Shown here in pieces: positions 2,588 through 59,066 of a stretch of DNA of 64,000 nucleotides. A program made the translations under genes and the position numbers. Within the stretch, counting starts at the first letter, position 1. Every line of letters begins with the position of its first letter. The notes beneath the pieces are model-generated. The model saw nothing but the letters and a program-made list of their open reading frames with translations, was not told the origin of the DNA and did not search any database. This stretch comes from a virus, in UHGV virus genome UHGV-1455077; one strand, written 5' to 3'.

Positions 2588-3526
2588 ATGGCAAATGGAG
2601 ATGATTCATTAATTTTTGAAGAAGGAAATGAAAAAGATACTGATACATTTAGTGATATTCAACTAATTGATAAGTCGGTATATGATAATTTTGATGATTC
2701 TGAAAAGCCAAATTGGGTAAGATATTCACCTTCATTGCAAAGTCAAGCCTATGCTCAATGGATTGCGGCTCAAAATCAAATGATAAAATTATTTGGAGAA
2801 TTAGGGCCAGTATTTGATAAATTAATGCCATTTACAAAAGGTGGAATGACACTTCAACCAATCCCTTTAACTTCTTTAATTAATTCTATAAAAACGGTAA
2901 CATCAGTTGCAGAAACAATGGGAGACGTTGTTAATACAATTGCAAGTACAGCAATTGTAAATATTGTTGCTGAACCATTAAAAAATTTATTTGGCTTAAT
3001 TGGAGCATTGGGTGGACTAATTTATGCATTATATATGAATCCTTATCAATTTATTGAACCTTATACATCCGCTATTAAAGCAGTTGATTTAACAAATTTA
3101 AAAGAACAATTTAATGCTGAAACAACTCCTAATTTAGATTTATATACAACTAAAGTTGAAGAAATTCCAATTCCAGACCCAGATATTAAAGGAGAAATTG
3201 AAACTGCTAAAAATCAAATAAAAAATTTAAAGCCAACTGCTGAAGATATGCTTGCAACTGCTGATGCATTAAATGAAACAGCAAAAACGTTAGAAGGAAT
3301 TCCTGAAACTTTACAAGCTGTATCTACAATGGGTTGTTCTTGGGCATTTAATGCCGCATTAGATGAATTTAATATTAAATTTGACCAAACAAAATTGCCA
3401 AATGTTGACCCTAATAATCAAGCTAAACAATGGGCGGAAAACGTTAATAATTTAGTTAACAAATTACCAGTTAAATATATTAAAGTTTCAGATTTAGAAA
3501 AATTAAAACAACTTGACAAATCTTAA
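2588..3526 (+). CDS. hypothetical structural protein
   Basis: 312 aa ORF. A GGA SD lies upstream. The middle is hydrophobic and Gly/Ala-rich, and the tail is coiled-coil-like. Confidence 0.5.
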   Translation: MANGDDSLIFEEGNEKDTDTFSDIQLIDKSVYDNFDDSEKPNWVRYSPSLQSQAYAQWIAAQNQMIKLFGELGPVFDKLMPFTKGGMTLQPIPLTSLINSIKTVTSVAETMGDVVNTIASTAIVNIVAEPLKNLFGLIGALGGLIYALYMNPYQFIEPYTSAIKAVDLTNLKEQFNAETTPNLDLYTTKVEEIPIPDPDIKGEIETAKNQIKNLKPTAEDMLATADALNETAKTLEGIPETLQAVSTMGCSWAFNAALDEFNIKFDQTKLPNVDPNNQAKQWAENVNNLVNKLPVKYIKVSDLEKLKQLDKS

Positions 3527-10845: not shown

Positions 10846-12111
10846 ATGAGAACTTATTTAGTTGGCGGAGCAGTAAGAGATATGCTACTTGGAAAAGAAC
10901 CACACGATAAAGATTATGTGGTTGTAGAATCATCAGTAGATGAAATGTTATCATTAGGTTATCAACAAGTAGGTAAAGATTTTCCTGTTTTTCTTCATCC
11001 AATAACAGGTGAAGAATATGCACTTGCAAGAACTGAAAGAAAAACTGGAAATAAACATACTGATTTTGAATTTTTTGCTGATTATGCTGTTACCTTATTT
11101 GAAGATTTAGGTCGCCGTGATTTTACTATGAATGCTATTGCTTTTAATATTGAAAATGAAAGTTGTTGGAGTTGTTGCTTAAATGACCCTTTTAAAGGCG
11201 TAAATGATATTAGAAATAAAATTATTCGTCATATTAGTGATTCATTTAAAGAAGACCCACTTCGTGTTTTACGAGCTTGTAGATTTTCAGCACAACTTGG
11301 ATTTGAAATTGCTTCTGAAACTATGGAATTAATGTCAAATATGGTAAATGATGGAATGTTAAATCATTTAACTGTTGAAAGAGTTTGGAAAGAAACTGAA
11401 AAAGCATTATCTTCTGGCTATGATTCTGAAAAATATTTTGAAACTCTTAATCAATGTGGTGCATTGAAAGTATTGTTTCCAGAAATATATAGACTTGTTA
11501 ATACACCTGAACAAGTAAAATATCATCCTTCTGGAAATACTTTTAAACATACAATGATTGCTTTATCAAGAGTTAAAAATGAAAATTCTTTAACAAAATT
11601 TGCCGTTGTTTGCCACGATTTAGGAAAAGGTACAACTCCTGTTGATATTTTACCTAAGCATAGCGGACACGATGAAAGAGGATTAACAGAAATTGATTCT
11701 TTGTGTGATAGACTAAAAGTTCCAAATAATTATAGAAATTGTGCAAAAACATTTTGTAAAAATCATATGCGTATGGCTCGTTTTAATGAAATGAATGTTA
11801 AAAAACAATATGATATGATTAAAGAATTATCAAATAATTTTAAAGAACAAATGCTTTTGGAATTATATATTGATTGTTTTTATGCTGATTGGACAGGTGA
11901 AAATGAACAAACAGCTTGGAATAATTTAGATGAAGCAGATGCAATTACGACAAAAATGAGAAAAATATTTTCTTTAATGGAAAGAATTACTTTAAAAGAT
12001 TTACCAGAAAAAACACAAGAAGATTTAAGTAAACAAAAAGGTGAAAAATTTGGTAAACTTTATCGTGATGCAATGATAAGTTATTTAAAATATAAATTGA
12101 AAAATTCTTAA
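10846..12111 (+). CDS. cca: tRNA nucleotidyltransferase (CCA-adding enzyme) with an HD domain
   Basis: MRTYLVGGAVRDMLLG...DKDYVV is the canonical class II Pol-beta head motif. RRDFTMNA and a later HD region (CHDLGKG) are also present. Confidence 0.85.
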   Translation: MRTYLVGGAVRDMLLGKEPHDKDYVVVESSVDEMLSLGYQQVGKDFPVFLHPITGEEYALARTERKTGNKHTDFEFFADYAVTLFEDLGRRDFTMNAIAFNIENESCWSCCLNDPFKGVNDIRNKIIRHISDSFKEDPLRVLRACRFSAQLGFEIASETMELMSNMVNDGMLNHLTVERVWKETEKALSSGYDSEKYFETLNQCGALKVLFPEIYRLVNTPEQVKYHPSGNTFKHTMIALSRVKNENSLTKFAVVCHDLGKGTTPVDILPKHSGHDERGLTEIDSLCDRLKVPNNYRNCAKTFCKNHMRMARFNEMNVKKQYDMIKELSNNFKEQMLLELYIDCFYADWTGENEQTAWNNLDEADAITTKMRKIFSLMERITLKDLPEKTQEDLSKQKGEKFGKLYRDAMISYLKYKLKNS

Positions 12112-45846: not shown

Positions 45847-45875
45847 TTATTGTTTTTTCAAAATTTTTAAGAATG

Positions 45876-45942
45876 GTGAGAAATTGATTTACATAGACTG
45901 GAAATCCGTGTGTAGAAAGTTCGATTCTTTCCCCATCGACCA
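45876..45942 (+). ncRNA. tRNA-like 3'-half module (T arm, acceptor 3' strand and ACCA) preceded by the conserved GTGAG...TTTACATAG leader
   Basis: GTGAGAAATTGATTTACATAG...GAAAG TTCGATT CTTTC CCCATCG A CCA. No matching 5' acceptor lies upstream. The complementary strand CGGTGGG lies downstream at 45948. Confidence 0.4.
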
Positions 45943-45947
45943 TTTAA

Positions 45948-45975
45948 CGGTGGGTAGCTCATTGGTAGAGCAACG
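45948..45975 (+). ncRNA. tRNA 5'-half-like element (acceptor, D arm: CGGTGGG TA GCTCATTGGTAGAGCA ACG); duplicated at 55886
   Basis: It complements the upstream 3' half perfectly, with one GU. It is followed by A-rich sequence and TTATGTTCCTT, as in the second copy. Confidence 0.4.
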
Positions 45976-46652
45976 TAAAATGATAATCAATTGTTATGTT
46001 CCTTCTTAATTTTAAAAGTTTTGGTAGTTGGAAGTTAAGCTTTTGGGGCAGGAGCAACTTAACTTCCATCTATTGATGCGTGTCCTGATTTAATTAATTA
46101 CCTTCTCGTGGTTCAGGATGTAAGTAAGAATTGCAGTTTTTGACATAAGACAATTCTGAAACTAAAGATTAATATTAAAATGATTTAATTGAAGTATAGT
46201 AAATTAAATAAGTTGATTAAATAAGTGAGCAAGATAGAATCAACTAAAGGTAATAATATGCAGATTATATGCCGAACTACTAACGCTTAAGGTAGATGTA
46301 GGAAATAACCTCGGTAGGGCAATTTAATTGTTAATCTCTTAGAAGTCCTAAAAAAATAAACCGTTTTAAAAAACTGCGTTAAATTAAAATTTTGAAATTG
46401 TTGTTCTCCTTTCATTGTTTTTCATACAACAAGAGTAAAAATATTCTTAGTATCGGGAGAGGTAATATCTTATCTCTCTCTTTTTATAAAAATGCTGGCA
46501 ATATTGGTTCGAATCCAATATGTATATCTTATCCTAAAAATTACTATTATAGTATTAGATTTAAATAGTAATGATATGTCAAATTTAATAAGAACGTGTT
46601 ATTGAATTATATACATTAGTTTAATGGTAGAACCCCAGCATTTCTATAAGAA

Positions 46653-46738
46653 GATTTTTATGGGTGTATAAGTCAACGGTTAGACTAACAGCCTTTTAAG
46701 CTGTAGATTCGGGTTCGATTCCTTTATAATCAATAATG
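46653..46738 (+). pseudogene. degenerate tRNA-Lys(TTT)-like element
   Basis: The D arm AGTC AACGGTTA GACT and the anticodon arm ACAGC CTTTTAA GCTGT are perfect. The T stem and acceptor cannot be paired. Confidence 0.3.
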
Positions 46739-49970: not shown

Positions 49971-50363
49971 AAGTTCATAAGGAGTTACCATTAGTCCTTA
50001 AATCACAATCATAATGGCGTTAGAATATCACGAGACGATATTTGGTTTGTAGTTATCCAGAACTATAATGTCACAATACGGACATTTCGTAAATTTAAAA
50101 ACTGTATTGCGTGGCTGATTACCCATACCATTACGACAAGATGGTTAAAAAATTTAGGTTAAAATGTGATTCCTATAAATCAAAAAAGACATTCTTTTAC
50201 TATTTTAGAGTTAGAAAATAGCGTTCATAATTAGAGTGAAATTATCGGTGAATTTGATATTACATCGTGATAAAAAATATTGAAGGAAGGAAAACCGTGT
50301 TGAAACCTTATTTAATCATTGTTATAAATGATTCGTGGTGATTCAATAACTATTACGTGAATA

Positions 50364-53743: not shown

Positions 53744-53772
53744 AAAATATATTGACATATGTTAATTATTAT
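53744..53772 (+). promoter_or_regulatory. sigma70-like promoter
   Basis: TATTGACA, a 17-nt spacer and TATATT. Confidence 0.4.
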
Positions 53773-54347
53773 GATATATTTAATTATATTTTAATTTTAA
53801 GTAATATATTAAAATCATTTAATAATTGGTTGGCAAGACCAATAGGATGCCTTTTTAAGGCAATGAAAGTAAAATCTTTCTTTTAATATATGAAGATAAA
53901 TTATGTCGTGAATGATTTAGTCGGAGAGATAAGCGACTAAGATAAAATAAAAAAATCTCAAATTCCATAGACGTATGGACGGCATAATAAATTAAATTGT
54001 TGTAACTCAAACAATGGGTAGCCTGCCCATAAGAGTATGCTGGATAATCTGAAAAGATTTGAAGGTAGTTGTGAGTAATACGAATCATAAGGTTGAAATA
54101 GCCACGGTTGGCTAACCGTGAGTGACGTAAGAACCAGACAAATCGTACAGATGAATAGGTCTGATGGCTGTATCTGGTTGGGAGTAGTCATTCTCCCCAT
54201 CCATTAAGCAAAGGAGTAATTAACCTTTGTGGGTGTGACTGAATAATGTGTCGTATGAGGGGCTTGTTGGTAGTCAGGAGTCCAACCAATAATTTAATTT
54301 TAACAGTTTGTGGCAGTCGTTCTGTTTAAAAACTCTGCCTTTTTAAA

Positions 54348-54380
54348 CAAACAGATAGTGATTATTAGATTTACATAGTT
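54348..54380 (+). ncRNA. minimal member of the ATAGTGA...TTTACATAG element family (leader plus T-hairpin only)
   Basis: AGATAGTGATTATTAGATTTACATAG TTCGATTC TAT. Confidence 0.3.
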
Positions 54381-54475
54381 CGATTCTATATTTTTTCATA
54401 TAAAAAGGAAAAATGCCAAAAGGGTGGCGTTTACAATCTAATGAATTTTCTTCTGTTTATTTAAAAATTTTCGAT

Positions 54476-54540
54476 AGTGAGTATAAGATTTACATAGACC
54501 AGACTTTTAATCTGACATTTACAAAATCTTATAGATTGTT
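54476..54540 (+). ncRNA. family member with a Lys-like anticodon hairpin (CAGA CTTTTAA TCTG) but no T arm
   Basis: CGATAGTGAGTATAAGATTTACATAGACCAGACTTTTAATCTGACATTTACAAAATCTTATAG. Confidence 0.3.
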
Positions 54541-54560
54541 CTTCGAATTAATACTTTTTT

Positions 54561-54678
54561 GTGAATAGTGAGATATTAGGTTTACATAGCTAAAGTGGTT
54601 AAAGCATTTGACTTGAAATCAAAGTATTGTAGGTTCGATTCCTACTGTAATTTTAACTTAATAAAATGTTCTTTCACA
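54561..54678 (+). ncRNA. Y-RNA-like candidate: leader GTGAATAGTGAG, an embedded cloverleaf tRNA mimic (54580-54653, anticodon-loop TGA, acceptor GTTTACA/TGTAATT, no CCA) and a 3' strand TTCTTTCAC that can pair with the leader
   Basis: D arm GCT AAAGTGGTTAA AGC. Anticodon stem TTTGA/TCAAA with loop CTTGAAA. T arm GTAGG TTCGATT CCTAC. A canonical tRNA-Ser(TGA) is present separately at 54728. Confidence 0.4.
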
Positions 54679-54727
54679 AATTTAATTATTTGACACTTTA
54701 TTATAAATGTTATATAAATAATAATAT

Positions 54728-54813
54728 GGAAGGTAACTGGCTGGATGAAGACACCGACTTGAAATCGGCTGGGCGTAACTGCTTTGGGGGTTCGAGTCCC
54801 TCACCTTCCGCCA
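54728..54813 (+). tRNA. tRNA-Ser (TGA), class II
   Basis: Acceptor GGAAGGT/ACCTTCC. Anticodon stem CCGA/TCGG with loop CTTGAAA. Long variable arm. T arm GGGGGTTCGAGTCCCTC. GCCA at the 3' end. Confidence 0.8.
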
Positions 54814-54820
54814 TTTTTAT

Positions 54821-55513
54821 TTGGTATTGTGGGATATGATAAAAGTAAGTAGAAAAGAATACGAAAATAATCCAGAAAAATATATTATATATTGTACAAA
54901 ATGTAAAAAACCAATAATATTTAAAGATTATAGACATTATTGTGATAGAGTTAATAAAATTAATATTAGACATCATCAACCATTTTGTTCAAAAGAATGC
55001 TCATATGAATATCATAGATTATTTACAAATAAAGGAATTTGTGATTTTTGTGGTAAAGAGTTTATTAGACAAAATGTTTATGGGGATAAAAGACAAAAAC
55101 ATACATTTTGTTCACAAAAATGTTCTGCAAAATATTTTAATAGTCATAAAAAATTTGGTTATAGAAAATCAAAAGCTGAAGAATATATTGTAAGTCAATT
55201 AAAAAAAAGATTATCCGTATTTAAATATTAAAGAAAATGATGTATCAACAATAGGTAAAGAACTTGATATTTATTTACCAGATTTAAATTTAGCATTTGA
55301 AATTAATGGTATAGTTCATTATAAACCTATATATGGAAAAGAAAAGTTAAATAAAATACAAAATAATGATTTTTTTAAAAAAGAATTATGTGAAAGTAAA
55401 AATATTTTATTGACAATAATTAATATAAGTGATATAAAAGTATTTAAAGAGAATTTAATTATAAATAAATATAATTACATTAAAGAAATTATAAGTAATA
55501 CAATGCCACGATA
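54821..55513 (+). pseudogene. Split homing-endonuclease-like gene: the 54821-55231 ORF (Cys/His-rich zinc-finger N-domain) and a +1-frame continuation 55203-55513 (DUF559/Vsr-like PD-(D/E)XK nuclease motif), joined at an A8 homopolymer
   Basis: Frame 0 ends ...QLKKRLSVFKY*. Frame +1 reads KKDYPYLNIKENDVSTIGKELDIYLPDLNLAFEINGIVHYKPIYGKEKL... The D.YLP...LA.E..G..H motif is typical of the endonuclease-domain (DUF559) family. The run AAAAAAAA at 55201-55208 is the junction. Confidence 0.5.
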
Positions 55514-55580: not shown

Positions 55581-55711
55581 GATTTTAATAAGCTCCCCCG
55601 CTAAAGATACTTTGTGTATACAGCGAATATGGGTCAAAGTTTAAACTTTGCATTAAATTATAATAATTGTACAATAAAAAATTATGTGAGCATTTTTTAA
55701 TTTTGTATGGT

Positions 55712-55745
55712 AATAGTGACTTAAAGAATTACATAGATAACTGAT
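55712..55745 (+). ncRNA. leader-motif copy (AATAGTGACTTAAAGAATTACATAG) with no recognisable tRNA body
   Basis: It matches the family consensus ATAGTGA-N(9-12)-TTACATAG. Confidence 0.25.
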
Positions 55746-55805
55746 TATTGTCTGCCAAAACAAGAAATTCTTTAAAATTATTCTTTACCATTTAAACTAT
55801 TTTAG

Positions 55806-55877
55806 CAATAGTGAGAAAAGGATTTACATAGGTTTGTAACCCGTTGGTAATTGGTTCGAATCCAATCAAGTAATTGA
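55806..55877 (+). ncRNA. tRNA-like 3'-half module with leader (GCAATAGTGAGAAAAGGATTTACATAG ... ATTGG TTCGAAT CCAAT CAAGTAA)
   Basis: It parallels the 45876 module: leader, mini-hairpin GGTT tgt AACC, T arm and acceptor 3' strand. The complementary TTATTTG strand follows at 55886. Confidence 0.35.
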
Positions 55878-55885
55878 AATATATT

Positions 55886-55910
55886 ATTTGTAGCTCATTG
55901 GTAGAGCAAC
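55886..55910 (+). ncRNA. second copy of the tRNA 5'-half-like element (TTATTTG TA GCTCATTGGTAGAGCA ACG)
   Basis: 21 nt are identical to 45955-45975. The downstream sequence is A-rich and contains TTATGTTCTTT, as in copy 1. Confidence 0.35.
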
Positions 55911-55954
55911 GATAAAAAATAATCCTTTATTATGTTCTTTGCTAACAAATATTT

Positions 55955-56070
55955 GGTGATAGTGATTAATTAGGTTTACATAGCTTAATGGTTAGAGCAT
56001 TGATTTAACACATCAAACGTTACAGGTTCAACTCCTGTTGTAATTAATACCTAATTTACTATTCTTCACC
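55955..56070 (+). ncRNA. Y-RNA-like candidate directly upstream of the Ro60/Rsr operon: a long terminal stem (5' GGTGA.TAGTGA.TTAATTAGG / 3' CCTAATT.ACTAT.TCACC with bulges) enclosing a cloverleaf tRNA mimic (55974-56046; acceptor GTTTACA/TGTAATT, anticodon-loop AAC, no CCA)
   Basis: D arm GCTT AATGGTTA GAGC. Anticodon stem TTGAT/ATCAA with loop TTAACAC. T arm ACAGG TTCAACT CCTGT. It is followed by the strong terminator at 56089. Confidence 0.45.
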
Positions 56071-56088
56071 AGTTCAATTTTGCACCCA

Positions 56089-56121
56089 AGAACATATGTT
56101 CTTGGGTATTTTTTTATATAA
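56089..56121 (+). terminator. rho-independent terminator
   Basis: ACCCAAGAACAT ATGTTCTTGGGT followed by ATTTTTTT. Confidence 0.7.
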
Positions 56122-56126
56122 GTTAT

Positions 56127-56156
56127 TGACAAATCATCTATAAATGAAGTATATTA
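56127..56156 (+). promoter_or_regulatory. sigma70-like promoter of the Ro60 operon
   Basis: GTTATTGACA, an 18-nt spacer and TATATT, upstream of 56182. Confidence 0.5.
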
Positions 56157-56181
56157 ATAAAAAACGTAAAAAGAGGTAAAA

Positions 56182-56481
56182 ATGAGCTATATTACAAATG
56201 AAGATGAACATCAACATATGACATTGTTTGTCTATTTTCCTTGTTCATTAGGTTATGAATGTGCAAAAATTATATTGCAACCTGGTGAGAAATTTTTTGC
56301 TAATGATGATGAAATTATTATGAAAATAGATAATAATAAAAATCCATTAAATAAAGATTTTGTAGGAATTAAAAACGGTGTTTTATATGCTGTTGGTCAA
56401 GAAATATATAAATTAGGAATGTTTAGAGAAAAACCTAAACAAATGACATTTGCCACGACAATGTTTAAATATACAGAATAA
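56182..56481 (+). CDS. hypothetical protein
   Basis: 99 aa ORF with an AAGAGGTAAAAATG SD. Confidence 0.4.
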   Translation: MSYITNEDEHQHMTLFVYFPCSLGYECAKIILQPGEKFFANDDEIIMKIDNNKNPLNKDFVGIKNGVLYAVGQEIYKLGMFREKPKQMTFATTMFKYTE

Positions 56482-56505
56482 ATTAATTATAAGGATTAAT
56501 AAATT

Positions 56506-56688
56506 ATGGATTATAATGAAGAATGGACTTTAGCTGATATTGATAATAATCACGATACACAGATGCTCAATGAATATTTTTCACAAAAAAGTATTAAAGA
56601 AAGAATATTAGAAAATAAAGAAAAATATCGTGCAGAACAAATACTTAAAACTAAAATGATTAAAGAAAATTTAGGTCAAAAAAGATAA
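56506..56688 (+). CDS. small hypothetical protein
   Basis: 60 aa ORF. Confidence 0.35.
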   Translation: MDYNEEWTLADIDNNHDTQMLNEYFSQKSIKERILENKEKYRAEQILKTKMIKENLGQKR

Positions 56689-56760
56689 AAAAAGTAGTTG
56701 ACTAATAAAACTAAAAATGTTATAAAAACAATGTAAAATTAACTTATGGAGTGTTGAAAA

Positions 56761-58047
56761 ATGAAAACAAATAAAGCTGAAAAGAAACCAGCAATTTACA
56801 CTAATGAAGGTGGTAAAGCATCTCATATTAGTGATTTAGAAGAATTGAAAAGAGCAACAATGTCTTGTTTGCTTTGGGAAGATAACTTCTATGAAGATGG
56901 TGTATCAATTGCTGACAGAATTACCTCTTTAGTTAAAAATTGTATTGATAAAGGTCATTATGATGATGTAATTGATATTTTGAAAACTGTAAAATTTGAT
57001 ATGAGATTACGTCATTGTCCATTGTGGATGATTGTTGCAATTTATAAAGCAGGTAAAACTATTGATAAGAATGTTATTGCATCTATTCTTACAAGACCAG
57101 ATGATATGGGAGAATTACTTTCTCTTTATCGTAAAGACCAAGCAAATGCACCTATTCCAAATGCTATGAAAAAAGCTATGGCTATTGCCATTACTAAATT
57201 TGATGAATATCAATTGGCTAAATGGAATCGTGATGCTAATTACAAATTGGTTGATATTGTAAACATTTGTCATCCACAAGTAACTGAAGCTATTGATAAG
57301 TTGGTTAAAGGAACTTTAGAAACTCCAAAAACTTGGGAAGTTCTTCTTTCTGCCGCTGGTTCTGATAAAGAAAAGAAAAAAGAAGCTTGGTTGGATTTGA
57401 TTGAAACTAATAAATTACCTGATATGGCTCTTTTGAAGAATATTCGTGGTATGTTGGATGTAGGTGTTTCTAAAAACACATTGGTTGACCGTATTAATAA
57501 TATTAAAAATGGTAGATTATTGCCAATTGATTATATTAGAGCGGCAAATACAAATCCATCATTGGAAAATGAAATTGAAAAGAAATTCTTAAATTGCTTT
57601 GAAAAACCTTCTTTGAATGGTAAGACTGCAATTTTAGTAGATGTGTCAGGTTCTATGGATGGAGAAAGATTAAATTATGCAAATGCATTAGCGATGATTG
57701 GTCGTGAAATGTGTGAAAATGTTGATATTTACTCATTCTCTAATGAAGTCAAATTCATTCCAAATCGTAGAGGATTTGCTTTAGCAGAAGCTATTGATAA
57801 ATCACAATACCATAATGGAACTTATATGTGGGATGCTATTAGTACAGTTGAAAAAGCTCATTACGATAGATTAATTGTTATTACTGATGAGCAAACAATG
57901 GGTATGCCACACAACGCAGTTATTAAAAATGCATACATTATTAATGTTGCACCATATAATAAAGGTGTTGGTTACAATAATGGTTACAAACATATTAATG
58001 GTTTTTCAGATAAAGTATTTAATTATATTACTGAAATTGAAAAATAA
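56761..58047 (+). CDS. rsr: Ro60/Rsr-like protein (TROVE-like N-terminal region plus C-terminal von Willebrand A domain)
   Basis: The vWA MIDAS motif is AILVDVSGSMDG, with downstream ...VITDEQT. The N-terminal segments LLWEDNFYEDG and DDVIDILKT...RLRHCPLWMIVAI resemble the Ro60 family (L.FGSEGGTYY ... EVI.EI ... P.LFALAIA). Confidence 0.55.
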   Translation: MKTNKAEKKPAIYTNEGGKASHISDLEELKRATMSCLLWEDNFYEDGVSIADRITSLVKNCIDKGHYDDVIDILKTVKFDMRLRHCPLWMIVAIYKAGKTIDKNVIASILTRPDDMGELLSLYRKDQANAPIPNAMKKAMAIAITKFDEYQLAKWNRDANYKLVDIVNICHPQVTEAIDKLVKGTLETPKTWEVLLSAAGSDKEKKKEAWLDLIETNKLPDMALLKNIRGMLDVGVSKNTLVDRINNIKNGRLLPIDYIRAANTNPSLENEIEKKFLNCFEKPSLNGKTAILVDVSGSMDGERLNYANALAMIGREMCENVDIYSFSNEVKFIPNRRGFALAEAIDKSQYHNGTYMWDAISTVEKAHYDRLIVITDEQTMGMPHNAVIKNAYIINVAPYNKGVGYNNGYKHINGFSDKVFNYITEIEK

Positions 58048-58416
58048 TTAAATAAATATAATAAACAAACCCGATAGGCTTCTTATTTAATGAGTAGTAT
58101 GGGTATATTGGTTAAAGTTAGACTTGCCCCCCTCTGCTACTCACATCAATAAATGCTTCTCGTTAGTCCACGAAGATTAACCGCCTAGATATTGATGAGT
58201 TTAAATACAGCACAATTATCTTTCTGGAATTGACCAGATAAGTTTATTAATATTCCTAGGTTCAATTAATAAATGGGTAGATTTATTTTTAACTTAATAA
58301 ATTCCAATCAAAAAATTTAATTATAAGTATTAAAATATAAGTTGGAGTTTAGTGTTAATTAATTTAACAAGAAGGATTGATTTCTTTCTTGTTAAATTAT
58401 TTTTGTGAAAAAGGAT

Positions 58417-58641
58417 ATGAAAATGTTAAATTTGAAAAGTATTTTAAATGATAATATGAGAGTTAAATTTGATTTTTATCGTGATGGTGCTTTATGGTAT
58501 TCAACAATGAATGGGTTTCAATTTCCTGTTCCTGTGAGAACTTTAGCCGCAACATCAATATTAAAAGCTAATGATAAAGCAACAGCATTCAGTTATTATA
58601 TTAAAAAATACTATAATGAATTAAATAAAAATAAGGAATAA
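58417..58641 (+). CDS. small hypothetical protein
   Basis: An AAAAAGGATATG SD precedes it. The ORF track start at 58405 is a GTG. Confidence 0.35.
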   Translation: MKMLNLKSILNDNMRVKFDFYRDGALWYSTMNGFQFPVPVRTLAATSILKANDKATAFSYYIKKYYNELNKNKE

Positions 58642-58646
58642 TTTTT

Positions 58647-59066
58647 ATGAAAATGCAATTTTATGTTAGTACAAAAGAAATAAGTGAAAATAATTATTTG
58701 TATGGTGTAATGTCAATGATTAATGATGAACCATTTGATTTTATTGTTGGTCAAATGAATGGAGAAAAGGATGATATTATTAATTTAATATCTAAAAATA
58801 CATTGATAAAAAATAAAACAGTATTGAAAAATAATTATTATACTTTTAAATATGAGGATTTATATACAACAAAAAAAATGTTATCAAAATTTCATACAGA
58901 TGATTTTTATAAATCATATTCAAAAGAACAGCAAACTGATTTAGATGCTTTGCCAGCATTATTTCTTTCGGATACAACAAAAATGATGCCATTAAATAAA
59001 AAGATGAATAATTATAAACAAATGCTTCAATATTATCAGATAACAAAAGAAAAAAATCGGAAATAA
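58647..59066 (+). CDS. hypothetical protein
   Basis: 139 aa ORF. Confidence 0.4.
   Translation: MKMQFYVSTKEISENNYLYGVMSMINDEPFDFIVGQMNGEKDDIINLISKNTLIKNKTVLKNNYYTFKYEDLYTTKKMLSKFHTDDFYKSYSKEQQTDLDALPALFLSDTTKMMPLNKKMNNYKQMLQYYQITKEKNRK

What the first reader, a model, noticed from the sequence alone, without database searches (positions are those of the whole stretch)
55700..58047. Phage-encoded Ro60/Rsr-like protein with adjacent Y-RNA-like tRNA mimics
ORF 56761..58047 has a vWA MIDAS motif (DVSGSMDG) and N-terminal segments resembling the TROVE domain of Ro60/Rsr. Directly upstream, at 55955-56070 and again at 54561-54678, are RNAs whose 5' and 3' ends can pair into a bulged stem (GGTGA.TAGTGA.TTAATTAGG with CCTAATT.ACTAT.TCACC). 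That stem encloses a cloverleaf tRNA-like domain with no CCA. This is the architecture described for bacterial YrlA Y RNAs that bind Rsr. The 5'-strand motif UAGUGAG also recalls the conserved Ro-binding helix GGUAGUGAG of metazoan Y RNAs. The RNA candidate ends at a strong terminator (56089) and the protein operon starts at its own promoter (56127). A Ro60-Y RNA module inside a phage tRNA island would be a distinct RNA-surveillance or tRNA-mimicry system.
Basis: partly seen in the sequence, partly recalled or inferred. Interest (0 to 1): 0.85.

Follow-up and report, generated by a model that had tools for sequence, protein, structure and literature searches.

The report
Phage Ro60 with seven Y RNAs
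A large uncultivated phage encodes a Ro60 ring protein and at least seven small partner Y RNAs that imitate whole tRNAs or parts of them; this kind of system is already known in phages, so this is a rich new example, not a new system.

Summary
ORF 56761..58047 is a Ro60/Rsr ortholog. It has a Pfam TROVE hit (E 2.5e-17), an intact MIDAS motif, and an AlphaFold model whose best PDB matches are all Ro60 proteins.

I find seven, all with one shared "handle":
- a terminal stem P1;
- a one-base bulge;
- AGUGA (or GGUGA) paired to GUUCU (or GUUCC);
- a second stem P2;
- a UACAUAG box.

Across 29 copies from 9 phages the handle is 94.7% paired, against 63% in shuffles, and most pairs show compensatory changes. 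In GC-richer relatives the motif reads GGCGA, which matches the published Rsr-binding GNCGAA.

The distal part of each RNA falls into one of three types:
- two are YrlA-type, with a T arm, a stem and a D arm (Rfam 42.5 and 35.4 bits, below the gathering score of 69);
- two are full cloverleaves without CCA;
- three are short, and two of these have a hairpin loop identical or nearly identical to a tRNA anticodon loop.

Phage Ro60 with Y RNAs is already published (22 phages in 2014; Thermus phage phiLo in 2025), and Caulobacter phage CcrColossus has a comparable seven-copy array. I therefore class this as a new member of a known kind. The anticodon-loop mimicry is the one possibly new angle.

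The parts
45867..46009 (+). Y RNA module M0, YrlA type. Handle with GGUGA/GUUCC, then a T arm, a stem-loop and a D arm. It lies 10.7 kb upstream of the Ro60 gene, inside the tRNA island.
   Evidence: Rfam YrlA 42.5 bits, E 4.8e-6 in the 64-kb search, alignment. No shuffle out of 300 closed the stem as well. Fold.
54349..54458 (+). Y RNA module M1, short type. Handle plus a T-loop-like hairpin (AUAG-UUCGAUU-CUAU) and a second hairpin.
   Evidence: No shuffle out of 300 closed the stem as well. Copies with the same or a similar P1 stem occur in L138 and L002.
54470..54547 (+). Y RNA module M2, short type. Handle plus a hairpin whose 7-nt loop CUUUUAA is identical to the tRNA-Lys(UUU) anticodon loop.
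   Evidence: 5 of 300 shuffles closed the stem as well. In the L135 ortholog the loop is kept and the stem changes from CAGA/UCUG to CAGU/ACUG.
54558..54680 (+). Y RNA module M3, cloverleaf type. The handle is attached at the acceptor end of a complete tRNA-like cloverleaf. The anticodon-type loop is CUUGAAA and there is no CCA.
   Evidence: Rfam tRNA 61.2 bits. ARAGORN calls it tRNA-Ser(tga) but it has no long variable arm. Consensus fold with covariation. No CCA.
55707..55791 (+). Y RNA module M4, short type. Handle plus a hairpin with loop CUGAUUA, which matches the tRNA-Ile(GAU) loop CUGAUAA at 6 of 7 positions.
   Evidence: 1 of 300 shuffles closed the stem as well. The loop is kept in L002 3515-3592.
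55802..55945 (+). Y RNA module M5, YrlA type (T arm, stem-loop, D arm).
   Evidence: Rfam YrlA 35.4 bits, E 4.3e-5. No shuffle out of 300 closed the stem as well. The orthologs in L002 and L003 score 38.9 and 38.8 bits.
55953..56072 (+). Y RNA module M6, cloverleaf type. The anticodon-type loop UUAACAC matches the tRNA-Val(UAC) loop at 6 of 7 positions. There is no CCA.
   Evidence: Rfam tRNA 59.3 bits. Folding z-score -3.46. The P1 stem changes from GGUG/CACC here to GAUG/CAUC in L002.
56084..56107 (+). Intrinsic terminator-like hairpin that ends the M4-M6 RNA cluster.
   Evidence: 10-bp stem followed by a T run. The same element follows the array in L002. In L135 it lies after the tRNAs that follow the array.
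56126..56155 (+). Sigma-70-like promoter match (TTGACA-18-TATATT) ahead of two small ORFs and the Ro60 gene.
   Evidence: 11 of 12 consensus positions. This is a consensus match only. The total number of such matches in the region is no higher than in shuffles.
56761..58047 (+). Ro60/Rsr ortholog of 428 aa: a TROVE HEAT-repeat ring plus a vWA domain with MIDAS residues D294, S296, S298, T354 and D376.
   Evidence: Pfam TROVE E 2.5e-17. phrog_850, annotated 'RNA-binding protein', E 1.7e-28. AlphaFold model with pLDDT 87.8. The top Foldseek hits are Ro60 of phage phiLo, Xenopus Ro60 and Deinococcus Rsr. The MIDAS columns are invariant in 45 homologs.

Best explanation
This is a phage Ro60-Y RNA ribonucleoprotein module.

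Parts:
- The 428-aa protein is a ring-shaped Ro60 ortholog.
- Seven small RNAs, transcribed on the same strand within the tRNA island, share a Ro60-binding handle.
- The handle is a terminal stem P1, a 1-nt bulge, and the 5' motif R-G-Y-G-A set against 3' N-U-N-C-Y. In that core, one R-Y pair covaries, one G-C pair is invariant, one position is a pyrimidine mismatch, and one is a conserved G.U pair. Then come an internal loop, a second stem P2 and a UACAUAG box.
- The UAC of the box plausibly corresponds to the conserved YUAY kink of YrlA. That is my inference.

Distal modules beyond the handle:
- a T/D elbow (YrlA type; M0, M5);
- a whole cloverleaf without CCA (M3, M6);
- short forms, two of which carry a single anticodon-stem-loop-like hairpin (M2, M4). 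M1 instead has a T-loop-like hairpin.

What is shown here: the protein's identity, the RNA structure, and their co-occurrence.

What is inferred:
- Ro60 binds the handle. This is by homology with the GNCGAA/CGAA motif of bacterial and phiLo Y RNAs.
- The distal tRNA-like parts act as tethers or decoys for host factors that recognise tRNA-shaped RNA. PNPase is the documented case in Deinococcus, Salmonella and phiLo. Anticodon-directed nucleases are a proposed case.
- The net effect is to protect phage tRNAs and transcripts during infection.

My confidence in the identity is about 0.9. My confidence in the tether/decoy function is about 0.35.
For: Protein:
- Pfam TROVE at 63.6 bits against a cut-off of 23.
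- Full-length alignment to phiLo Ro60, E 1.9e-13.
- Model pLDDT 87.8, and the top 13 Foldseek hits are all Ro60 chains, with TM-scores up to 0.75 normalised to the query.
- MIDAS residues invariant.

RNA:
- 6 exact motif copies against 0.01 expected, plus a seventh.
- Stem closure beats shuffles.
- Across 29 distinct handles from 9 phages, 94.7% of cells are paired against 63.1% in shuffles and about 50% when the partner is slid by 1-3 columns. 14 of 17 pairs change on both sides. The covariation score is 0.81 against 0.22.
- The G.U pair is kept in 27 of 29 copies. On the opposite strand it would be a C-A mismatch, so the structure belongs to + strand RNA.
- Rfam YrlA hits M0 and M5 and their orthologs.
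- Relatives at 57-60% protein identity (L005, L139, L140) carry GGCGA/UUUCC in place of AGUGA/GUUCU, directly upstream of their TROVE gene. This matches the published GNCGAA motif (PMC4201824).

Association with Ro60:
- In 97 TROVE loci, mostly viral contigs, a generic handle search gives 185 hits on the gene strand, 38 on the reverse strand and 43 in shuffles. Arrays of 2-6 often sit just upstream of the gene.

tRNA-part mimicry:
- The M2 and M3 loops are identical to the phage's own tRNA-Lys(UUU) and tRNA-Ser(UGA) loops. M4 and M6 match tRNA-Ile and tRNA-Val loops at 6 of 7 positions.
- In 46 short modules, 25 of 56 hairpins have 7-nt loops. Of those, 15 start with CU and 14 end with AA, against 6 and 16 of 124 in shuffles.

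Functional precedent:
- phiLo Ro60 with its two Y-like RNAs binds host PNPase and attenuates it (PMC12135203).
- A competitive-inhibitor role for the YrlA tRNA-like domain against an anticodon nuclease has been proposed (PMC7790460).
Against: - No expression or binding data exist for this uncultivated phage.
- The Rfam YrlA scores (42.5 and 35.4 bits) are below the gathering score of 69.
- The window's motif AGUGA departs from GNCGAA at two positions.
- In my handle alignment the 3' partners were chosen by a pairing search, which inflates the percentage paired. The shuffle test and the independent MAFFT/RNAalifold result only partly offset this.
- Folding energies of M2 and M3 are not better than shuffles (z -1.23 and -0.66).
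- The relatives examined at 78%, 76% and 60% protein identity (L132, L134, L136) show no UACAUAG-type module within 4 kb of the gene. The generic search found 3 weak hits in L134. So the linkage is not obligatory at that distance.
- No PNPase, RtcB or nuclease partner was identified in the window.
Confidence: 0.8

Rival explanations
1. The Ro60-Y RNA particles serve RNA repair or quality control of the phage's own tRNAs. The tRNA-like Y RNAs would be a platform that brings Ro60 together with a ligase or nucleotidyltransferase, as proposed for the bacterial rsr-yrlBA-rtcBA operons. They would not be decoys or PNPase tethers.
For: The locus sits inside a tRNA island of about 20 genes. The window encodes a tRNA nucleotidyltransferase (10846-12111; Pfam PolyA_pol, and phrog_2244 at E 3e-119). 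A relative (L135) has Tpt1/KptA-type and phosphoesterase genes a few kb downstream. The jumbo-phage review places TROVE proteins among RNA-repair systems (PMC7824862).
Against: No RtcB or other RNA ligase was seen among the window ORFs scanned. The repair role of Rsr and Y RNA is itself unproven in bacteria (PMC7790460). The only biochemical data for a phage Ro60 point to PNPase binding and inhibition.
Confidence: 0.25
2. M3 and M6 are genuine decoding tRNA genes. Their long complementary leader and trailer are only processing signals, and the shared motifs are tRNA-processing or promoter elements unrelated to Ro60.
For: ARAGORN and Rfam call both of them tRNAs (59-61 bits). They lie among real tRNAs. 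In Mycobacterium smegmatis a YrlA is cut by RNase P and receives CCA, so processing is conceivable.
Against: - The same handle flanks five modules that are not cloverleaves.
- 19 of 21 other tRNA calls in the island encode CCA, and these two do not.
- The acceptor stem has a U-U mismatch, and only 4 of its base pairs are supported in the consensus fold.
- 'tRNA-Ser' M3 has no long variable arm, whereas a real tRNA-Ser(UGA) with one lies at 54728-54812.
- The anticodon changes between close orthologs: UGA, UUU and GUU for M3, and AAC and UGA for M6.
- The handle co-occurs with TROVE genes in phages that have no tRNA island at that site.
Confidence: 0.06
3. The repeats act at the DNA level, as small mobile elements, recombination sites or transcription signals, and not as structured RNAs.
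For: They are short, repeated, clustered and flanked by inverted repeats. Homing-endonuclease-like ORFs are present in the island.
Against: The P1 and P2 sequences differ between copies while complementarity is kept, which fits selection on pairing and not copying of a fixed inverted repeat. A conserved G.U pair and other G.U pairs work on one strand only. All copies are on the strand of the Ro60 gene. Two copies match a curated RNA covariance model.
Confidence: 0.03

Closest known systems
Bacterial and phage YrlA Y RNAs with Rsr (Chen et al. 2014, PMC4201824; Rfam RF02553)
   Same: - The RNAs are encoded next to a TROVE/vWA Ro60 ortholog.
- The 5' and 3' ends pair.
- The 5' strand carries a GNCGA-type motif (GGCGA in relatives at 57-60% protein identity), followed by a UAC that fits the conserved YUAY.
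- M0 and M5 have the order T arm, stem-loop, D arm, with tRNA-type conserved bases.
- Phages are already among the reported hosts (22 phages).
   Different: - The scores are below the Rfam gathering score.
- The window's motif is AGUGA or GGUGA.
- Only 2 of the 7 modules have the YrlA arrangement.
- The others carry a full cloverleaf attached at the acceptor end, or only a short hairpin.
Thermus phage phiLo Ro60 with Yrl1 and Yrl2 (PMC12135203; PDB 9KOP, 9L5Y)
   Same: - A phage-encoded Ro60 with Y-like RNAs immediately upstream.
- It is the best sequence match (E 1.9e-13) and the best Foldseek match in the PDB.
- The RNAs have a stem-bulge-stem form with a CGAA-type motif.
   Different: - About 20% sequence identity.
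- 500 aa against 428 aa.
- Two RNAs against seven.
- In the passages I read, that paper does not describe tRNA-like modules.
- PNPase binding has been shown there and is untested here.
Caulobacter phage CcrColossus TROVE locus
   Same: About 1.1 kb of tandem modules lies upstream of its TROVE gene. I count seven by eye (L297 2307-3410); my script delineated two of them. They have the same architecture: P1, U, GGCGU-AG, P2, a UACUUCG box, then GUUCC and P1'. Most are T/D type. One has an anticodon-like arm plus a T arm. One is partly annotated as tRNA-Gln.
   Different: GC-rich, with a UACUUCG box in place of UACAUAG. Protein identity is 37%. The locus is not embedded in a large tRNA island.
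Deinococcus radiodurans Yrn1 with Rsr and PNPase (RYPER)
   Same: As described in PMC4201824, Yrn1 has the Ro-binding stem at the acceptor position and an anticodon-like arm between D-like and T arms. That is the topology of M3 and M6. It also provides a functional model of a Y RNA tethering Ro60 to PNPase.
   Different: The Yrn1 handle is the metazoan type, with both strands conserved. M3 and M6 carry the YrlA-lineage handle and a complete D arm. The paper treats the two topologies as separate lineages, whereas here both sit in one array on one handle.

Membership tests
Ro60 / Rsr (TROVE + vWA ring protein) | TROVE domain detected above the curated threshold | tested here: met
   PF05731, E 2.5e-17, 63.6 bits against a cut-off of 23. 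phrog_850, E 1.7e-28.
Ro60 / Rsr (TROVE + vWA ring protein) | C-terminal vWA domain with MIDAS residues (DxSxS, T, D) | tested here: met
   D294-V-S296-G-S298, T354 and D376 are invariant in 45 homologs. The model has a Rossmann-like beta/alpha C-terminal domain that matches vWA and integrin I domains. The Pfam VWA_2 and vWA_Ro60 HMMs alone are below their cut-offs.
Ro60 / Rsr (TROVE + vWA ring protein) | Overall fold like solved Ro60 structures | tested here: met
   AlphaFold model with pLDDT 87.8 and pTM 0.77. Foldseek hits: 9kop and 9l5y (phiLo Ro60, E about 1e-15), 1yvp (Xenopus Ro60, query-normalised TM 0.73-0.74) and 2nvo (Deinococcus Rsr). Ring closure was not inspected directly.
Ro60 / Rsr (TROVE + vWA ring protein) | Binds Y RNA and misfolded RNA | not testable with these tools
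   Needs EMSA, co-purification or a structure.
Y RNA (Ro60-bound noncoding RNA) | Encoded close to the Ro60 gene, on the same strand | tested here: met
   M4-M6 lie 0.7-1.05 kb upstream, M1-M3 lie 2.1-2.4 kb upstream, and M0 lies 10.7 kb upstream. In L002, L005, L139 and L140 the array sits directly upstream of the gene, within about 130 nt.
Y RNA (Ro60-bound noncoding RNA) | The 5' and 3' ends pair into a stem that contains a conserved bulged or mismatched helix | tested here: met
   94.7% paired, 14 of 17 pairs with changes on both sides, and controls near 50-63%.
Y RNA (Ro60-bound noncoding RNA) | Conserved Ro-binding 5'-strand motif (GGUCCGA in animals, GNCGAA in bacteria) | tested here: inconclusive
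   The window has AGUGA six times and GGUGA once. Relatives at 57-60% protein identity have GGCGA(A/G), which fits GNCGAA. Across the surveyed TROVE loci, mostly phage, GGUGA is the commonest form. This reads as a graded variant and not an exact match.
Y RNA (Ro60-bound noncoding RNA) | Expressed as a discrete small RNA bound by Ro60 | not testable with these tools
   No transcript or binding data are available.
YrlA (Rfam RF02553) | Reaches the Rfam gathering score (69 bits) | tested here: not met
   M0 scores 42.5 bits and M5 scores 35.4 bits. The E-values are 4.8e-6 and 5.3e-4 in the 64-kb search.
YrlA (Rfam RF02553) | tRNA-like domain in the order T arm, acceptor-like stem-loop, D arm, with the handle at the anticodon-stem position | tested here: met
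   Met for M0 and M5 (alignments, folds). Not met for M1-M4 and M6, which are therefore Y-like RNAs but not YrlA in the strict sense.
tRNA (considered for M3 and M6) | Cloverleaf that scores above the tRNA model threshold | tested here: met
   61.2 and 59.3 bits against a threshold of 29.
tRNA (considered for M3 and M6) | Intact 7-bp acceptor stem with a free 3' end or CCA, and an anticodon kept among orthologs | tested here: not met
   There is a U2-U71 mismatch, and only UACA/UGUA is supported as a stem. There is no CCA, whereas 19 of 21 other tRNA calls in the island encode it. The ends are locked into P2 and P1. The anticodon differs between orthologs.

The most novel reading that the evidence does not exclude
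Phage Ro60 loci may encode panels of Y RNAs whose distal ends are deliberate copies of particular tRNA anticodon stem-loops. In this window these are Lys-UUU and Ser-UGA exactly, with Ile-GAU-like and Val-UAC-like near matches, alongside whole-tRNA and elbow mimics. On this reading the array is a set of Ro60-mounted decoys or baits for host enzymes that read or cut anticodon loops, such as anticodon nucleases used in anti-phage defence. The identity of each mimic would turn over quickly between related phages; M3 orthologs, for example, read UGA, UUU or GUU. That would give the long-unexplained tRNA-like domain of bacterial Y RNAs a concrete role in conflict between phage and host.
Probability: 0.25. 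Interest if true: 0.75.

Novelty: new member of a known kind. Interest (0 to 1): 0.42.

Why it matters
This confirms that a first-pass reading of raw sequence can recognise a Ro60-Y RNA system. It also adds a divergent, AT-rich lineage that the Rfam YrlA model misses at its curated threshold. That lineage comprises contigs of about 200-390 kb, probably from gut phages.

The array is useful to people who work on Y RNAs for three reasons:
- One conserved handle carries three different kinds of tRNA-like cargo side by side.
- The YrlA and Yrn1 topologies, previously treated as separate lineages, occur on the same handle.
- The short modules carry anticodon-loop-like hairpins far more often than chance allows.

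What the tRNA-like part of bacterial Y RNAs is for remains an open question. A natural panel of defined mimics suggests direct binding and protection experiments. The system as a whole is already known, however, so the gain is incremental.

Tried and rejected
- **Motif scan of viral contigs.** Almost all had a single match, as expected by chance for 15 fixed bases, so it was not informative.
- **Eighth candidate at 50247.** The motif is GGTGA...TTACATCG. I rejected it because 136 of 300 shuffles closed as well and it overlaps tRNA-Ile.
- **Metazoan comparison.** From my own knowledge of hY1, that sequence lies in the upper stem, while Ro60 contacts GGUCCGA (also stated in PMC4201824).
- **Rfam on bacterial relatives.** A gathering-threshold scan of 19 bacterial loci at about 40% identity and one misbinned phage contig (L143) found no YrlA. 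Reading L149 by eye nevertheless showed tandem modules with the same handle. The curated threshold therefore under-detects this lineage.
- **Close relatives without an array.** L132/L133, L134, L136/L137 and L143 show no UACAUAG-type module within the fetched flanks. I could not fetch more of those contigs.
- **DNA similarity to deposited phages.** It gave only tRNA matches and a short match to Lak megaphages outside the finding.
- **Literature not held.** The 2018 and 2020 Wolin-lab reviews and the supplement tables of Chen 2014 were not available. I therefore could not check how many Y RNAs per phage have been reported.
- **RtcB.** I did not search for it outside the window.

Full report
**Source and setting.** The window matches a 216,815-bp viral contig, IMGVR_UViG_3300045988_152892, at 100% protein identity over the ORF. 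It is AT-rich and has a tRNA island from about 44.5 to 60.3 kb, with 21 ARAGORN calls. DNA similarity to deposited phages is negligible. The closest cultured-phage homologs of the protein are at most 41% identical: Ralstonia RsoM2USA, Xanthomonas phages and Caulobacter CcrColossus.

**The protein.**
- ORF 56761..58047 (428 aa) hits Pfam TROVE at E 2.5e-17, 63.6 bits against a cut-off of 23. It hits vWA models only weakly.
- It matches phrog_850, annotated 'RNA-binding protein'.
- It aligns end to end with the Ro60 of Thermus phage phiLo, E 1.9e-13.
- An AlphaFold model built from 45 homologs has pLDDT 87.8.
- The 13 best PDB matches of that model are all Ro60 chains: phiLo, Xenopus, human and Deinococcus.
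- The MIDAS residues D294, S296, S298, T354 and D376 are invariant in the alignment.
- More than 5,000 homologs exist in the protein collection. At least 487 stretches in viral contigs encode relatives. About 430-aa forms also occur in Acidobacteriota, Planctomycetota and other bacteria at about 40% identity.

I conclude that this is a Ro60/Rsr ortholog.

**The RNAs: how many and where.** They belong to a larger set.
- ATAGTGA-N-TTACATAG occurs six times on the + strand against 0.01 expected.
- A seventh copy with GGTGA lies at 45867-46009.
- The modules are M0 45867-46009, M1 54349-54458, M2 54470-54547, M3 54558-54680, M4 55707-55791, M5 55802-55945 and M6 55953-56072.

**The shared handle.** Each module has the same frame:
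- a 5-8-bp terminal stem P1;
- a 1-nt bulge;
- the 5' motif R-G-Y-G-A facing 3' N-U-N-C-Y;
- an internal loop;
- a 7-10-bp stem P2;
- the box UACAUAG.

**Evidence that the handle is a real structure.**
- For six modules, the real 3' partner closes the stem better than nearly all of 300 shuffles of the downstream sequence (0 to 5 shuffles did as well). For M6, 16 of 300 did as well. An eighth candidate at 50247 fails this test.
- On 29 distinct handles from nine phages, 94.7% of cells pair against 63% in shuffles and about 50% when the partner is slid. 14 of 17 pairs change on both sides.
- Within the core, the first pair covaries (A-U 20 times, G-C 9 times), the second is always G-C, and the fourth is G.U in 27 of 29 copies. 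That G.U pair places the structure on the + strand RNA.
- An independent MAFFT/RNAalifold run on eight cloverleaf-type modules recovers P1, P2, a 4-bp acceptor-like stem, and the D, anticodon-like and T stems. 17 of its pairs are covarying.
- Folding energy alone is unconvincing for M2 and M3.
- One caveat applies. I picked the 3' strands by a pairing search, so the percentage paired is inflated. Searches are the checks on that.

**Link to known Y RNAs.**
- Rfam's YrlA model hits M0 (42.5 bits, E 4.8e-6) and M5 (35.4 bits) in the right order: T arm, stem-loop, D arm. It also hits the orthologs in L002, L003 and L005 and a module in L011. All are below the gathering score of 69.
- In GC-richer relatives at 57-60% protein identity (L005, L139, L140), four or five modules sit immediately upstream of the TROVE gene. 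Their core reads GGCGA(A/G) against UUUCC or AUACC. That is the GNCGAA motif that Chen et al. proposed as the Rsr contact.
- The UAC in the box fits their conserved YUAY. The structural preprint describes its UA as the kink nucleotides.
- The handle is therefore a derived YrlA-lineage handle.

**Three kinds of cargo.**
- *YrlA type.* M0 and M5 carry the T/D elbow.
- *Cloverleaf type.* M3 and M6 are complete cloverleaves scoring 61 and 59 bits on the tRNA model, but they are not ordinary tRNAs. They lack CCA, while 19 of 21 other tRNA calls in the island encode it. Their acceptor stem has a mismatch and is continuous with P2. M3 is called tRNA-Ser yet has no long variable arm, and a real tRNA-Ser(UGA) lies at 54728-54812. 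The anticodon differs among orthologs.
- The topology of M3 and M6 is the one described for Deinococcus Yrn1, which the 2014 paper regarded as a separate lineage. Here both topologies share one handle in one array.
- *Short type.* M1, M2 and M4 are 78-110 nt long. M2 and M4 carry one main hairpin; M1 carries a T-loop-like hairpin and a second hairpin.
- The M2 loop CUUUUAA equals the phage's tRNA-Lys(UUU) anticodon loop. The M3 loop CUUGAAA equals that of tRNA-Ser(UGA). The M4 and M6 loops match the tRNA-Ile(GAU) and tRNA-Val(UAC) loops at 6 of 7 positions.
- The M2 loop is kept in L135 while its stem changes on both sides.

**How general this is.**
- A generic handle search over 97 TROVE loci, mostly viral contigs, gives 185 hits on the gene strand against 38 on the reverse strand and 43 in shuffles. 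Arrays of 2-6 often abut the gene.
- The commonest cores in that survey are GGUGA and GUUCC.
- In 46 short modules, 25 of 56 predicted hairpins have 7-nt loops, against 124 of 1,428 in shuffles. Of the 25, 15 begin with CU and 14 end with AA, against 6 and 16 of 124.
- CcrColossus, already listed as a phage with Y RNAs, has tandem modules with UGGCGUAG, a UACUUCG box and GUUCC upstream of its TROVE gene. I count seven by eye, and my script delineated two of them. One is partly annotated as tRNA-Gln.
- An Acidobacteria locus (L149) has the same handle in tandem copies.
- Arrays of this kind are therefore not unique to this window.

**Transcription signals.** A TTGACA-17-TATATT site with an extended -10 element lies at 53752-53780, ahead of a structured leader and M1-M3. 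An intrinsic terminator at 56084-56107 follows M6. A second promoter-like site at 56126-56155 precedes two small ORFs with no family match and then the Ro60 gene. The two small ORFs are absent in L002, where the Ro60 gene follows the terminator directly, so they are not part of the conserved module.

**Mechanism.**
- *Shown here:* protein identity, RNA structure, co-occurrence, and tRNA-part mimicry at the sequence level.
- *Inferred:* Ro60 binds the handle, and the distal modules engage factors that recognise tRNA-like RNA.
- *Precedent:* the only phage Ro60 studied binds two upstream Y-like RNAs, and with them binds and attenuates host PNPase. [quoted passage not shown]
- I favour a tether or decoy role that shields phage tRNAs and RNAs, with confidence about 0.35 for that step.
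- An RNA-repair or quality-control role is the main alternative. It is supported only by context: the tRNA island, a tRNA nucleotidyltransferase at 10846-12111, and repair-type genes near the Ro60 gene of one relative.

**Verdict.** I did not find the mixed-topology array or the anticodon-loop-like short modules described in the papers I could read. Two relevant reviews and the 2014 supplement were not available.

Noticed in passing
window 53900-54300: Noncoding stretch ahead of M1 with weak Rfam hits to manA RNA (54209-54296, 23.5 bits) and 6A RNA (53913-53967). The equivalent region of relative L135 scores 35.2 bits for manA. This is the only part of the region with blastn similarity to Lak megaphages (about 70% identity). 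It is probably a manA-like structured RNA transcribed from the promoter-like site at 53752.
   Followed up: partly
window 58048-58404: Noncoding gap directly after the Ro60 gene, conserved in position and partly in sequence in six relatives. It has a long-range ACCC/GGGU pairing, a CUGG/CCAG hairpin and an AU-rich stem, and it ends at a terminator (58360-58399). The window, L002 and L138 carry an insertion of about 55-110 nt. The consensus fold has some compensatory changes but a weak overall covariation term. Its function and any link to Ro60 are unknown.
   Followed up: partly
window 54821-55500: A zinc-finger ORF (zf-FCS hit) is followed, after an apparent frameshift at an A-run near 55205, by an endonuclease-like reading frame (ELDIYLPDLNLAFEINGIVHY). 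The whole block sits between tRNA-Ser and tRNA-Thr and is absent from relative L002, so it looks like an inserted and possibly decaying homing-endonuclease gene.
   Followed up: no
window 55581-55700: Conserved noncoding sequence after tRNA-Thr (CUCCCCCGCUAAAGAUACUUUGUGUAUACAGCGAAUA). It is also present in L002 (about 3260-3300) and L135 (about 1085-1125). It may be another small RNA or a processing element.
   Followed up: no
window 54728-54812: A genuine tRNA-Ser(UGA) with a long variable arm and an encoded CCA. ARAGORN missed it, and Rfam scored it best as tRNA-Sec (30.7 bits, below threshold).
   Followed up: partly
window 10846-12111: A tRNA nucleotidyltransferase (CCA-adding enzyme family; phrog_2244, E 3e-119) is encoded although nearly all tRNAs of the island carry an encoded CCA. 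It might repair CCA ends or act on the CCA-less tRNA-like Y RNAs.
   Followed up: partly
window 46010-46735: A 650-nt noncoding stretch after M0 contains an isolated T-arm-like hairpin (about 46497-46520) and a D-arm-like piece (about 46613-46635). It is followed by a tRNA-Lys(UUU)-like gene (46662-46732, 44.5 bits) with an imperfect acceptor stem and no CCA. These could be degenerate or unconventional tRNA-like elements.
   Followed up: no
window 58405-59066: Two small ORFs (78 aa, matching phrog_20427 of unknown function, and 139 aa with no family hit) follow the Ro60 gene. Relatives L132, L134, L135, L136 and L138 show the same arrangement after their Ro60 gene: a gene of 70-72 aa and then one of 119-138 aa. 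These are possible functional partners.
   Followed up: partly
L297 (Caulobacter phage CcrColossus) 2307-3410: Tandem Y-like modules with UGGCGUAG, a UACUUCG box and GUUCC lie upstream of the TROVE gene; I count seven by eye. The record annotates part of one of them (2628-2695) as tRNA-Gln. One module has a hairpin loop CUGCAAA (Cys-like) and another has CUGUUAA (Asn-like).
   Followed up: partly
L154 (contig binned as Planctomycetota), whole locus: A TROVE gene sits in the middle of a dense run of 21 tRNA genes on a 7.9-kb contig. This is the same arrangement as in the window and suggests a misbinned phage fragment.
   Followed up: no
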